The translations under genes and the position numbers were made by a program. Shown one piece after another: positions 48,779 to 51,416 of a stretch of DNA of 64,000 nucleotides; position 1 is the stretch's first letter, and each line of letters begins with the position of its first letter. Source of the stretch: the human T2T-CHM13v2.0 reference genome, Homo sapiens. The stretch lies in assembly GCF_009914755.1 (NCBI RefSeq), contig NC_060935.1; one strand, given 5' to 3'. The notes beneath the pieces are model-generated. The model saw only the letters and a program-made list of their open reading frames with translations. It made no database searches and was not told the origin of the DNA.

Positions 48779-49505
48779 AATTTACTTGTTTTTAATGCTG
48801 AACCTGTCCAGTAAAAATTCAGTTTGAGTGATGATATTTTAATTGTAAAAAGATGATAAACACCAGACTTAACATAAAATCCAGATTTTATGTTAATTAA
48901 ATGTTACGTAAATATTCATCTAACATACCTCCACAGTACTTTTTTCCTTCATATATTGGTTATAAACTCCATTCATTTCTTCATATGATTTTATATTATA
49001 ATTTTCTTTTAAAAAATTACTGAGACAATACTGATTTTATACAAGGAATTTCCATCGTGATCTTTCATTTATTTCTAAAATAATAGACTCTGGGTTTTTA
49101 ATTGGTCGTGAAACTTTGATTGCTTTGGTGTCACCAGCTTTGTTTGGAGACTGCTTGGAATATTTGAATGTCAATGTAAACTTTATTCCCCAAAAACCAA
49201 ATTACATATGGCTAGACTTCCTTTTCAGTTCCTATATAATACTTTTCTGAAGCCGTCACGCTACAGGTTCTTATTATTTGTCTCTCATTTTCTTCTTACA
49301 GCCTAGGACCAATTCTGTGTTTGATATATTTCTCATTTTGTTATAATTTTTCAGTAATTTAGAGGTCTTGGAATGAGTTCTGTGCTATTACTGGCAGACT
49401 CTGGATCTGGAGCTCCTCATTACTTCTTCTCCCCTTTTTTCAATACTACTTCTTTCAATTCCCTCCACCTAGTCTTTCCTCTGTCTCATTAGAAATTACA
49501 GTATA

Positions 49506-49620
49506 GGCTGGGTGTGGTGGTATGGGCCTGTAGTTCCAGCTACTTGAGAGGCTGAGGTGGGAGGATTGCTTGAGGGCAGTAGCCCAAGACCAACCTGGGT
49601 AACATAATGAGACCCCGTAT
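49506..49620 (+). mobile_element. FLAM_A-like Alu monomer with no A-tail, fused to the XIAP pseudogene 3' end
   Basis: GGCTGGGTGTGGTGG...GCCTGTAGTTCCAGCTAC...GAGACCCCGTAT followed directly by XIAP exon-6 antisense. Confidence 0.85.
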
Positions 49621-51416
49621 CTTTTTGCAGTGAAGTCTGACTTGATTCATCTTGTGTCTTTCTGAGCACTCAATGAATCTGCAACCAGAACCTCAGGTGA
49701 CTTATAGTTGCTCCCAGATGTTTGAATTTTTTCTTCCATTATTTTCTCAATATTCTTTAAACTGAATCCCATTTGTGTAGCTTCTTGTACCATAGGATTT
49801 TGAAAGATGGTATAATCCATTCTTATAGTTAGTGATGACATTTTTTTCAGCACTTCTCACCAGTGACTCCTCAAGTGAATGGGTTAAATGGATATTACTT
49901 ATATATTCTTGTTCTTCTCCTGTAATAGATATTTACACCTTGGATACCACTTAGCATGTTGTTCCCGGGGGTGTTGAATGGGTTTCCATCAGTTAGCCTT
50001 CTTCCACAGCAAAAGCATTTTACTTTATCACCTTTACCTAAAGCATAAAATTCAGCTCCTGCATGCTGCTGCTTGTTAACTGAGTACATCCACATCCCCA
50101 AAGTAATGATCTGTGCTTCATAATGCTCCATGGATGGATTTCTTCAGAGGATTTGTTGAATTGGGGAAATTCCTATCAGAACTCACAATGTCAGATTCAC
50201 TTCAAATATTAACATTCTGGCCGAAAACAAAGAAGCAATTAAGAAAGTGTTGCCTATGTTCTTCTGCCACCAGCCAGCACTATAAGGTTCCCAATTTTTC
50301 AGTTTTCTACCACAATAAAAGCACTGCACTTGGTCATCAATACTTGTGTATTAGAGTTCAGCACTAACTCTCTCTCTTGGGGTTAAGTGGGCATAGTTTG
50401 GCCAGTTCTGGAATGACTATAGTTGAGCTTCCTCACTATACATGATGGGTTTCTGGGTTTCTTGGGTATATGGTATCTGATACATTTAAGCCTGTCCGGT
50501 TATCAAAAGATAATCTGCATGAATCTCAGATGGCCTGCCTAAGGCAAATTGATTACTGTTTCCCAGTTTTCAACTTTGTACTGACCATTTTGGATACTAG
50601 GATTTGCAGGTTTTGTGTCACTATTTTAAAAGTAAATGCCGGCCGGGAGCGGTGGCTCACACCTGTAATCCCAGCACTTTGGAAGGCTGAGGTGGGCAGA
50701 TCACGAGGTCAGGAGATCGAGACCATCCTGGCTAACACAGTAAAACTCCGTCTCTACTAAAAATACAAAAAGTTAGCTGGGCATGGTGGTGGGTGCCTGT
50801 AGTCCCAGCCACTCAGGAGGCTGAGGCAGGAGAATGGCGTGAACCCGGGAGGTGGAGCTGGCAGTGAGCCGGGATCGCGCCACTGCACTCCAGCCTGGGC
50901 AACAGAGTGAGACTCCATCTCAAAAAAAAAAAAAAAGCCGTTGGTAATCTGCAATTTGGGATACTTTCTTGTGTCTGCCAACTGTTGAGTCTCCATATTG
51001 CCTTCTATCTACTCCTGCATGACCACTAAAGCACCACATGGTGTCTCCTTCACCATATATATAAAGAAATAATATAAAGAAAACCTACTTGTGCCAGTGT
51101 TGATGCTGAAACAGGACTACTACTTGGAAAACTAGCAAAAAGTTTTTAATCCGTTAAACTCTTCTACAAATTCTTCGTCCTTATTGATGTCTGCAGATAC
51201 ACAGCTTTAGATCCTTCAAAACTGTTAAAAGCCATCTTCTCTTGAAAATAGAACTTGTTCACCTTTTCTTAGGTGTCAAAGAGTTTGGAAAGGCAGTCTT
51301 GGAGAGCATAAGCTACCCACCCTCCCACCCAGTTATACCTTCCTTCGACAGTCCTGGGAACCCAGTCACGGAGCCCTTGCTGGGTGGGTGCGGCTTTCCT
51401 GCCCTCCCCAGCAGCC
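49621..51416 (-). pseudogene. Processed pseudogene of XIAP (BIR1-BIR2-BIR3-UBA, no RING); possibly the locus annotated XIAPP2
   Basis: ATG at 51235 (MAFNSFEGSK); BIR3 ([13 protein letters not shown]) and UBA ([15 protein letters not shown]) peptides in ORF track; no introns at XIAP exon junctions; many frameshifts and stops; interrupted by an AluY. Confidence 0.95.
50641..50936 (+). mobile_element. AluY inserted in the XIAP pseudogene just after BIR1
   Basis: AluY diagnostics (GAGATCGAGACCATCCTGGCTAAC, GAATGGCGTGAACC); XIAP sequence resumes on both sides with a degenerate TSD ending in gcc. Confidence 0.92.

What the first reader, a model, noticed from the sequence alone, without database searches (positions are those of the whole stretch)
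49496..49660. Fossil of a RING-less XIAP isoform: exon 6 spliced in frame into an exonised antisense FLAM
Seen: on the minus strand the retrocopy reads ...GAT GAA TCA AGT CAG ACT TCA CTG CAA AAA G ([10 protein letters not shown]), then switches at 49621/49620 to ATACGGGGTCTC..., an antisense FLAM missing its poly(T) tail. Known (from memory): XIAP exon 6 ends at this G (c.1300, first base of E434) and exon 7 encodes the RING. Antisense Alus supply acceptors at T(n)AG|AGACGGGG, with the T-tail acting as polypyrimidine tract and being spliced out. Seen: the XIAP frame stays open for 41 codons ([44 protein letters not shown] at 49498-49496). Inference: the source mRNA used an Alu-derived alternative last exon, giving BIR1-3+UBA XIAP without E3 ligase activity. 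It was expressed in the ancestral primate germline and may still be produced.
Basis: partly seen in the sequence, partly recalled or inferred. Interest (0 to 1): 0.85.

Follow-up and report, generated by a model that had tools for sequence, protein, structure and literature searches.

The report
XIAP pseudogene preserving an odd transcript
The XIAPP2 pseudogene seems to be a DNA copy of an old, unusual XIAP messenger RNA that skipped the last (RING) exon and ran instead into an Alu-type repeat and DNA from beyond the gene's end; it is a curiosity, not proof of a working protein variant.

Summary
On the minus strand XIAPP2 leaves XIAP exactly at the exon-6 donor (49621/49620), enters an antisense FLAM, and the XIAP frame stays open for 41 codons.

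New evidence bears on the interpretation. The 51 nt just beyond the FLAM (49492-49442) have a single relative in the 3.1-Gb genome. It lies 25.2 kb downstream of XIAP exon 6, on XIAP's sense strand, about 11.8 kb past the canonical poly(A) signals. The FLAM is therefore flanked on both sides by XIAP-locus sequence and was most likely part of the retrocopied RNA. The retrocopy runs about 180-200 bp beyond its annotated end.

Caveats:
- Exon 7 also starts AGA, so the junction letters fit microhomology as well as splicing.
- No matching antisense FLAM exists at the human XIAP locus today. A truncated sense monomer sits next to the 51-nt relative.
- A T-rich tract and a 34-nt repeat outside the retrocopy mimic the FLAM's missing tail and target-site duplication.
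- No clear target-site duplication was found for the retrocopy.
- The open frame is unremarkable: the other two frames stay open 26 and 54 codons.

This is a fossil of a non-canonical XIAP transcript (confidence about 0.55); function and present-day expression are unsupported.

The parts
50936..51415 (-). XIAPP2 5' block: XIAP exon 1 and the start of exon 2. The 5' end is sharp at 51415, 47 nt upstream of the annotated start 51368.
   Evidence: exon-1 match at C23:122170792-122170945, 67%; alignment; homology begins at GCTGCTGGGG.
50637..50935 (+). Dimeric Alu inserted later into the retrocopy, splitting the annotated pseudogene in two.
   Evidence: poly-T plus antisense Alu read on the minus strand; SRP-type hits at 50642-50756 and 50776-50923, + strand.
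49621..50636 (-). XIAPP2 3' block: the rest of exon 2 through the last base of exon 6, with no introns.
   Evidence: 83% to exon 2, 86% to exon 3, 84% to exon 4, 87% to exon 6. The exon-5 stretch is contiguous with retrocopies C2 and C10. The match ends at the last query base, which is the exon-6 donor.
49618..49622 (-). Junction microhomology AGA(T)A. These bases fit both the XIAP mRNA across the exon 6/7 join (AG|AGA) and the first bases of an antisense monomer.
   Evidence: exon 7 starts AGATTAG; genomic monomers end ...TCTCT before the A-tail.
49506..49620 (+). Free Alu monomer (FLAM-type), sense on +, therefore antisense within the XIAPP2 transcript orientation. The body is complete; no A-tail is adjacent.
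   Evidence: SRP hit at 49507-49623; alignment with 7 genomic monomers.
49493..49505 (-). 13-nt linker TATACTGTAATTT of unknown origin. It contains the TAA that ends the 41-codon frame.
   Evidence: No source was found.
49442..49492 (-). 'X-homolog': 51 nt whose only relative in the genome is C23:122236167-122236217 (+). That site is 25.17 kb downstream of the XIAP exon-6 end.
   Evidence: and (43/51; 0 of 300 shuffles reach its score; the only site hit by both 25-mers; 2 hits genome-wide, control 0).
49423..49441 (-). 19-nt purine-only run GAAAAAAGGGGAGAAGAAG. It is a candidate decayed poly(A) tail, or a copy of an A-rich tract. XIAP-locus homology stops here.
   Evidence: At the XIAP site an (ATT)n array starts at this point.
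51416..51431 (-). 16 nt between the retrocopy 5' end and the T-rich tract, reading tAAAATGATATTATAG on the minus strand. It is preceded by ...GTAT, so it sits at an L1-endonuclease-like site. It is either a candidate 5' target-site duplication or filler.
   Evidence: No convincing 3' partner was found.
51432..51488 (+). A-rich tract TACAGAGAAAATAAAAAAG (51432-51450) followed by repeat copy R (51457-51488). R resembles copy L (49470-49503), which abuts the FLAM's 5' end. This is the basis of the 'split native FLAM' rival.
   Evidence: alignment score 13, reached by 0.16-2.0% of controls; an A-rich tract within 40 nt of a random site has p 0.0126.

Best explanation
XIAPP2 is an L1-mediated processed copy of a non-canonical XIAP RNA made in an early primate germline.

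In that RNA, exons 1-6 were joined at the normal exon-6 donor to the start of an antisense free Alu monomer. The RNA then continued, directly or through one further join, into sequence that today lies 25.2 kb downstream of exon 6, about 11.8 kb beyond the canonical poly(A) signals. It ended at an A-rich stretch. Exon 7, which encodes the RING, was skipped.

The retrocopy therefore extends from 51415 to about 49442-49423, some 180-200 bp beyond the annotated 3' end.

Shown: the exon-6 boundary, the monomer, and the unique XIAP-locus relative of the flank.

Inferred:
- The exon-6/monomer join was a true splice that used the monomer's T-tract and AG.
- The source monomer stood upstream of the 51-nt segment and was later lost or rearranged in the human lineage.
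- A translated product would have been BIR1-3 + UBA with an Alu-derived tail. Whether it was ever translated is unknown.
For: 1. Exact exon boundary. XIAP homology ends at the last base of exon 6. The other 3 of 3 retrocopies go on to exon 7. The 29-nt junction is unique in the genome.

2. XIAP-locus origin of the flank. 49492-49442 matches C23:122236167-122236217 at 43/51, in the same orientation as XIAP. 0 of 300 dinucleotide shuffles reach 52.5 bits (maximum 35.4). Two overlapping window 25-mers with up to 3 mismatches have 8 and 4 other hits genome-wide (controls 4 and 2), and this site is the only one hit by both. A 34-mer made degenerate at the 4 differing positions has only these 2 hits in 3.117 Gb, control 0. 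The chance that a single relative falls in the 150 kb searched, on the right strand, is about 2e-5.

3. The monomer has no A/T-tail or target-site duplication of its own next to it. A later insertion between exon 6 and the flank is therefore unlikely.

4. The monomer begins exactly where antisense Alu monomers offer T-tract + AG acceptors. The antisense orientation of most Alu exonisations is taken from the abstract of PMC2330237.

5. A 19-nt purine run follows the XIAP-derived part.

6. The retrocopy's 5' end lies at the XIAP promoter-proximal exon 1.
Against: 1. No antisense monomer of the window's subtype or with its 13-nt flank exists in 150 kb downstream of exon 6. The best of 218 Alu hits is 75.6% identical and is the left arm of a dimeric Alu with an unrelated flank. 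The free monomers at +3.5 kb and +14.9 kb differ at blocks I read as subtype-diagnostic (subtype naming is partly from recall).

2. Next to the 51-nt relative the human locus carries a 3'-truncated SENSE monomer. An extra deletion or rearrangement, or an extra splice, must be assumed.

3. Exon 7 starts AGA, so the junction letters are also those of a microhomology join to the canonical mRNA. AGAGA occurs at about 11 sites in the mRNA proxy.

4. Just outside the retrocopy's 5' end lie an A-rich tract and a 34-nt repeat of the monomer's 5' flank. This is what is expected if the monomer were native and split (0.16-2% of controls; tract p 0.0126).

5. No significant target-site duplication was found for the retrocopy, and no clean poly(A). 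The best candidate scores 13, null frequency 0.15.

6. The rest of the flank (49441-48810) has no XIAP-locus match.
Confidence: 0.55

Rival explanations
1. Template-switch chimera. L1 reverse transcriptase started on an RNA from the XIAP-downstream region (the 51-nt segment plus an A-rich end). It jumped to an RNA carrying an antisense monomer. It then jumped, through the AGAGA microhomology, onto canonical spliced XIAP mRNA exactly across the exon 6/7 join. No exon-6-to-Alu splice ever existed.
For: - Up to 5 nt at the junction are shared by both partners.
- The monomer and its 13 nt have no detectable source at the XIAP locus.
- The orientation conflict at the XIAP site disappears if the monomer came from another RNA.
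- L1 RT template switching and capture of other RNAs are documented (PMC1920257 section 11, read; PMC2104539 abstract from the search listing, on tripartite chimeras).
Against: - The jump must land on the one of about 11 AGAGA sites that spans an exon join, or on about 0.4% of positions if microhomology is not required (my estimate). A splice explains this without coincidence.
- Three templates are needed, two of them from the same locus.
- The junction between the 13 nt and the 51-nt segment shows no clear microhomology source.
Confidence: 0.15
2. Native, split monomer. The FLAM and everything below 49620 are original TMEM135-intron DNA. A 3'-truncated XIAP cDNA, lacking exon 7 and poly(A), was inserted without a target-site duplication at a break between the monomer's body and its A-tail. 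It was primed by the TCTCT/AGAGA microhomology, as in endonuclease-independent, repair-type insertion, and 16 nt of filler were added at the other end.
For: - The monomer is cut exactly at its body/tail boundary.
- On the far side of the XIAP copy lie 16 nt of filler, then TACAGAGAAAATAAAAAAG, then a 34-nt copy of the monomer's 5' flank. The alignment score of 13 is reached by 0.16% (window), 0.58% (210-kb pool), 0.88% (shuffles) and 2.0% (same-geometry pairs) of controls.
- An A-rich tract within 40 nt of a random site has p 0.0126.
- Lack of target-site duplication, microhomology and extra nucleotides are features of such insertions (PMC1920257, abstract and section 11 read).
Against: - The 51 nt on the monomer's other side would then be native chr11 DNA, yet their only relative in the genome lies 25 kb downstream of XIAP exon 6 on XIAP's strand. 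That coincidence is about 2e-5.
- The breakpoint would also have to fall at the exon 6/7 join by chance (about 1 in 11 AGAGA sites).
- The left repeat copy is closer to the XIAP-locus segment (19/21) than to its supposed duplicate (my count and outputs).
Confidence: 0.12
3. Post-insertion rearrangement. A canonical full-length XIAP retrocopy was later truncated by a deletion, or a more complex rearrangement, that happened to end at the exon 6/7 join and at the monomer's end.
For: The microhomology AGAGA at the join would suit a microhomology-mediated deletion. The retrocopy is old: 83-87% identity to XIAP exons.
Against: - Two exact coincidences are needed: the exon boundary and the monomer body end.
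- The XIAP-locus match of the flank remains unexplained.
- No trace of exon 7 or the 3'UTR was found in 49441-48810.
Confidence: 0.05

Closest known systems
Processed pseudogenes as 'genomic fossils' of splice variants (Shemesh et al. 2006, seen here only as a reference in PMC5470649; the concept is recalled)
   Same: An intronless retrocopy preserves an exon-exon junction that is not in the reference mRNA.
   Different: The non-canonical part is an antisense Alu monomer plus DNA from beyond the annotated gene end. The source exon is no longer recognisable at the human parent locus.
Alu exonisation from antisense elements (abstracts of PMC2330237, PMC2639721 and PMC3629564 from the search listing)
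   Same: The element is antisense to the transcript. The exon starts at the element's first bases, where the poly-T tract and an AG can act as acceptor.
   Different: The element is a free monomer rather than the right arm of a dimeric Alu. It would act as part of a terminal exon after the true last exon is skipped, not as an internal cassette. The acceptor itself cannot be inspected because the source element was not found.
Endonuclease-independent (repair-type) L1-mediated insertions (Sen et al. 2007, PMC1920257; abstract and section 11 read)
   Same: No clear target-site duplication, microhomology at a junction, extra nucleotides, a missing 3' end of the canonical mRNA, and no clean poly(A).
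   Different: The flank that should be native matches the parent gene's locus. A purine-rich tail remnant is present.
Other XIAP retrocopies in the same genome (C2:113279909-, C10:110570390-, C19:56369351-)
   Same: They derive from the same parent gene and are of similar age: 77-84% identity to XIAPP2.
   Different: All three read exon 6 into exon 7 and the canonical 3'UTR. Only XIAPP2 has the aberrant junction.

Membership tests
L1-mediated processed pseudogene | Contiguous exons without introns, in mRNA order | tested here: met
   exons 2, 3, 4 and 6 match as abutting blocks. The exon-5 stretch is contiguous with retrocopies C2 and C10. Exon 1.
L1-mediated processed pseudogene | Poly(A) tail at the 3' end | tested here: inconclusive
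   There is only a 19-nt purine run at 49441-49423. No A-run longer than 6 occurs outside Alus down to 48334.
L1-mediated processed pseudogene | Target-site duplications flanking the insert | tested here: inconclusive
   The best 5'-flank/3'-flank match scores 13, with null frequency 0.15. The 5' flank has an endonuclease-like ...GTAT/AAAA site, but no 3' partner was found.
Alu (monomer) exonisation | Element antisense to the host transcript, with the exon starting at the T-tract/AG of the element | tested here: met
   the monomer is sense on + while XIAPP2 is on -. XIAP sequence abuts the monomer's first antisense bases and the T-tract is absent.
Alu (monomer) exonisation | The same element is present in the parent gene's transcription unit | tested here: not met
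   No matching antisense monomer in 150 kb downstream of exon 6 in the human genome. Only the adjacent 51 nt are found there. Other primates could not be searched.
Alu (monomer) exonisation | Junction explicable only by splicing | tested here: not met
   Exon 7 starts AGA, so up to 5 nt are shared. A microhomology join gives the same letters.
Endonuclease-independent L1-mediated insertion | Flanking DNA on both sides is native target DNA, with no target-site duplication and a 3'-truncated insert | tested here: not met
   The DNA beyond the monomer has its only genomic relative at the XIAP locus.
Free left Alu monomer (FLAM) | A roughly 115-130-nt 7SL/Alu-like monomer with its own A-tail and target-site duplication | tested here: inconclusive
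   Body: met. No adjacent tail. A tail-like tract and repeat lie 1.8 kb away across the XIAP copy. The subtype naming is from recall, not from a repeat library.

The most novel reading that the evidence does not exclude
Early primates made, and some primates may still make, a RING-less XIAP (BIR1-3 + UBA with an Alu-derived tail). It would arise by skipping exon 7 and splicing exon 6 to an antisense Alu-monomer exon about 12 kb beyond the gene's canonical end. Such a caspase inhibitor would lack its own E3 ligase. XIAPP2 would be the only surviving record after the source exon was lost in the human lineage.
Probability: 0.08. Interest if true: 0.7.

Novelty: new member of a known kind. Interest (0 to 1): 0.4.

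Why it matters
If the reading holds, three things follow:
- The XIAPP2 annotation should be extended by about 180-200 bp.
- The pseudogene records that the ancestral XIAP transcription unit could read about 12 kb past its present poly(A) site and splice around the RING exon.
- It gives a worked example of a trap. The breakpoint at an exon boundary looks like proof of splicing, yet it sits in microhomology with the next exon. A mimic of a 'split repeat' sits beside it.

The finding says nothing yet about a functional RING-less XIAP protein. One RNA molecule in one germ cell is enough to make a retrocopy.

Tried and rejected
1. Whole-genome search with the 611-nt and 596-nt flanks. Only Alu hits or self were returned. 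The tool's first look missed the 84%/51-nt match, which was found only by local BLAST.

2. The 18-nt direct repeat at 49430-49447 / 51544-51561 as a target-site duplication. Rejected: its 5' copy lies 128 nt outside the retrocopy's sharp 5' end.

3. My first eyeballed 15-nt duplication (49491-49505 / 51449-51463, 11/15). There are 32 such positions in the 64-kb window, self included. It was superseded by the 34-nt alignment.

4. The 51-nt segment as a member of a dispersed repeat. Five of the 25-mer hits belong to a roughly 330-nt family, but they share only a core of about 30 nt. Rejected.

5. The antisense Alu arm at +24.4 kb as the source. It is the left arm of a dimeric Alu with an unrelated flank. 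Rejected.

6. The free monomer at +14.9 kb. Its pre-Alu flank shares a 13/14-nt core with the window's linker. However, the monomer is of a different subtype with 5 indels, and I estimate the flank match at p 0.01-0.08. Kept only as a weak lead.

7. The intron-6 free monomer at +3.5 kb. It differs in a 5-nt block I read as diagnostic, and its flank is its own (GTTT)n duplication. Rejected.

8. The monomer-end + 13-nt 25-mer. It has 19 other hits, all ordinary antisense Alu ends with unrelated flanks, none on C23.

9. Twin-priming or inversion models linking the window monomer to the sense monomer at the XIAP site. The two are 65/85 identical with no special shared changes (my count). The models contradict the sequence after TAATGAGAC. 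Rejected.

10. Apparent similarity of 49424-49412 to the start of exon 7. I read 11/13 by eye using a partly recalled exon-7 comparison. It does not extend, and there is no BLAST hit to exon 7. Treated as chance.

12. Literature. No paper describes an exon-6-to-Alu XIAP transcript or XIAPP2. Searches; passages read. One mouse Xiap-like pseudogene paper was seen in a listing only. Supplements were not consulted.
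Full report
**Observation.**
Read on the minus strand, the window gives ...gatgaatcaagtcagacttcactgcaaaaag|atacggggtctcattatgtt... with the change of identity at 49621/49620. In the local XIAP frame this reads [10 protein letters not shown] followed by 41 sense codons and a TAA at 49498-49496.

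The host genome could be searched. XIAP lies on contig C23, + strand. The retrocopy's 3' block matches exon 2 (83%), exon 3 (86%), exon 4 (84%) and exon 6 (87%) as abutting pieces. The exon-6 match ends at the last base of the query.

The genomic exon 6 ends ...cagaaag|gtatgc. Exon 7 starts 6.3 kb later as ...tttttgcag|agattagtactg and encodes the RING finger (Pfam zf-C3HC4_3, E 1.2e-15). Three other XIAP retrocopies (C2, C10, C19) all read exon 6 straight into exon 7. The 29-nt exon-6/monomer junction is unique in the genome.

The sequence that follows is an Alu-type free monomer, sense on the + strand (49506-49620). It gives an Rfam SRP-type hit below the gathering score. Aligned with seven genomic monomers, it is complete to the last base of its body and lacks the A-rich tail they all carry.

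**Two cautions on the observation.**
First, the 41-codon open frame carries no weight. The other two frames stay open for about 26 and about 54 codons beyond the junction, and the tail hits no Pfam family.

Second, exon 7 begins AGA. Genomic monomers end ...TCTCT before their tail, so read antisense they begin AGAGA. Up to five junction bases (AGA.A; the fourth is now T) can therefore be assigned to either partner. An exon-6-to-monomer splice and a microhomology join between the monomer and canonical exon-6/7 mRNA give the same letters. AGAGA occurs 8 times in a 7.0-kb proxy for exon 7 plus 3'UTR and twice in exon 2, besides the one across the exon join.

**A serious rival: the monomer is native and was split.**
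The retrocopy's 5' end is sharp at 51415, where homology to XIAP exon 1 begins. Beyond it the + strand reads, in order:
- 16 nt of unassigned sequence;
- TACAGAGAAAATAAAAAAG;
- at 51457-51488, a gapped copy of the 34 nt that abut the monomer's 5' end (49470-49503).

This is the layout expected if a native monomer, with tail and target-site duplication, had been split at its body/tail boundary by a 3'-truncated XIAP cDNA inserted without a duplication.

The repeat's alignment score of 13 is reached by 0.16% of random 100-nt segments of the window. It is reached by 0.58% of segments of a 210-kb pool, 0.88% of shuffles and 2.0% of same-geometry pairs. An equally A-rich tract lies within 40 nt of 1.26% of sites. 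For a while this was my leading explanation. Its features match those described for endonuclease-independent L1-mediated insertions (PMC1920257, abstract and section 11 read).

**The evidence that turned the case.**
I fetched 100 kb, later 150 kb, downstream of exon 6 and compared it locally with the DNA beyond the monomer. One match stood out: window 49492-49442 (minus) against +25167..25217 (C23:122236167-122236217, + strand), 43 of 51 identical, 52.5 bits.
- None of 300 dinucleotide shuffles of the query exceeded 35.4 bits.
- The next-best hits (34 bits) are matched by hits in 99 kb of unrelated DNA.

Unbiased genome-wide pattern counts agree:
- Two overlapping 25-mers from the window, allowing three mismatches, have 8 and 4 other hits in 3.117 Gb (reversed-pattern controls 4 and 2). 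The XIAP-downstream site is the only place hit by both.
- A 34-mer made degenerate at the four differing positions, again with three mismatches allowed, hits only these two sites (control 0).
- Five of the 25-mer hits belong to a dispersed family of about 330 nt. That family shares only a core of about 30 nt with the window, so the pair is not explained by a repeat family.

The probability that a single relative falls by chance in the 150 kb searched, on XIAP's strand, is about 2e-5. Canonical poly(A) signals cluster at about +13.3-13.4 kb. The relative therefore lies about 11.8 kb beyond the gene's usual end.

The monomer is thus flanked by XIAP exon 6 on one side and, 13 nt away, by XIAP-locus DNA on the other. 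It has no tail or duplication of its own adjacent to it. It was therefore most probably part of the retrocopied RNA. XIAP-locus homology stops at 49442, where a 19-nt purine-only run follows (49441-49423). This run is a plausible decayed poly(A) or a copied A-rich tract. At the XIAP site an (ATT)n array begins at that point.

**What does not fit.**
- The human XIAP locus has no antisense monomer that could be the source. Of 218 Alu-type hits in the first 100 kb, the best (75.6%) is the left arm of a dimeric Alu whose flank is unrelated.
- The two free antisense monomers, at +3.5 kb in intron 6 and at +14.9 kb, differ from the window's monomer at blocks I read as subtype-diagnostic. That subtype reading is partly from recall, because no repeat library was available. 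Neither has a convincing flank match.
- The monomer-end + 13-nt junction has no relative elsewhere. The 19 pattern hits are ordinary Alu ends with unrelated flanks.
- Immediately upstream of the 51-nt relative, the human locus carries a 3'-truncated monomer of the same general type but in SENSE orientation. It is 65/85 identical to the window's, which is not unusually close.

To keep a single-RNA origin, one of two things must be assumed. Either an antisense monomer plus 13 nt once stood there and was deleted, or the monomer was a separate exon spliced to the 51-nt segment. I could test neither without other primate genomes.

In addition:
- The retrocopy has no significant target-site duplication. 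The best candidate has null frequency 0.15. The bases just 5' of the retrocopy do sit at an endonuclease-like ...GTAT/AAAA site.
- The tail-like tract and 34-nt repeat described above remain an unexplained coincidence under this reading, of the order of 1e-3 to 1e-4 by my estimate.

**Weighing.**
The native-split-monomer rival needs the roughly 2e-5 coincidence of the XIAP-locus match. It also needs a breakpoint that happens to fall on the exon 6/7 join, about 1 in 11 AGAGA sites.

The single-RNA reading needs the coincidence of the mimic tail and repeat, plus one unobserved change at the XIAP locus.

A template-switch chimera (XIAP-downstream RNA, then an antisense-monomer RNA, then canonical XIAP mRNA at AGAGA) removes the orientation problem. 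It pays again for the exon-join coincidence and needs three templates.

I therefore put:
- about 0.55 on a genuine exon-6-to-monomer transcript;
- 0.15 on the chimera;
- 0.12 on the native split monomer;
- 0.05 on a later deletion;
- the remainder on something more complex.

**Comparison with what is known, and novelty.**
Retrocopies that preserve non-reference splice junctions are an established idea. I saw Shemesh et al. 2006 only as a reference in PMC5470649. Antisense Alu exonisation is well described (abstracts of PMC2330237, PMC2639721 and PMC3629564 in the listing).

I found no paper on XIAPP2 or on an exon-6-to-Alu XIAP transcript (searches; passages read). Supplements were not consulted.

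This is a new member of a known kind, with three unusual features. The last exon is skipped. The Alu-derived part is a free monomer. The remainder comes from about 12 kb beyond the gene.

The claims of a functional RING-less protein and of present-day expression are not supported by anything I could test. One RNA molecule in one germ cell suffices to make a retrocopy.

Noticed in passing
window 49430-49447 and 51544-51561: An 18-nt direct repeat (16/18 identical), TCCCCTTTTTTCAATACT / TCACCTTTTTTGAATACT, with some further similarity beyond it. It brackets the whole complex but lies 128 nt outside the retrocopy's 5' end. It may be chance or an old local duplication of the target region.
   Followed up: partly
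window 50637-50935: A dimeric Alu with an 18-nt T-run (read on the minus strand) was inserted into XIAPP2's exon-2 part. This is why the annotated pseudogene has two 'exons'.
   Followed up: no
L011 (C19:56367851-56371859): The C19 XIAP retrocopy reads through exon 6 into a RING-coding exon 7 and 3'UTR, with Alu insertions. It is only 77% identical to XIAPP2. From recall, it may be the BIRC8/ILP-2 retrogene.
   Followed up: no
L015 1727-1795 (C23, XIAP intron 6): A sense Alu fragment begins only about 25 nt after the exon-6 donor of XIAP.
   Followed up: no
L020 5079-5260 (C23:122236079-122236260): At the XIAP +25 kb site, an L1-like 3' end (identified from recall) is followed by a 3'-truncated sense Alu monomer, the 51-nt relative of the window flank, and an (ATT)n array into which several antisense Alus have inserted. 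The 51-nt segment starts CTAATGAGCC, resembling the 3' end of the monomer type (ATAATGAGACC in the window's copy).
   Followed up: partly
L030-L033, L036 (C2, C4, C11, C11, C8): A dispersed repeat family of about 330 nt shares a core of about 30 nt (…AGGAGAGACTAGGTGGAGGTAATTGAA…) with window 49483-49452. The family was not identified.
   Followed up: partly
window 49504-49556, 50774-50825 and others: Rfam mir-1268 and mir-3135 hits, all below their gathering scores, are simply Alu sequence.
   Followed up: no
window 51657-51690 (minus strand): GGAAATGAAG followed by an AT-rich stretch resembles the end of the XIAP +25 kb segment plus its (ATT)n (28/34, E 3e-4 against a 9-kb target). This is probably low-complexity chance.
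   Followed up: no
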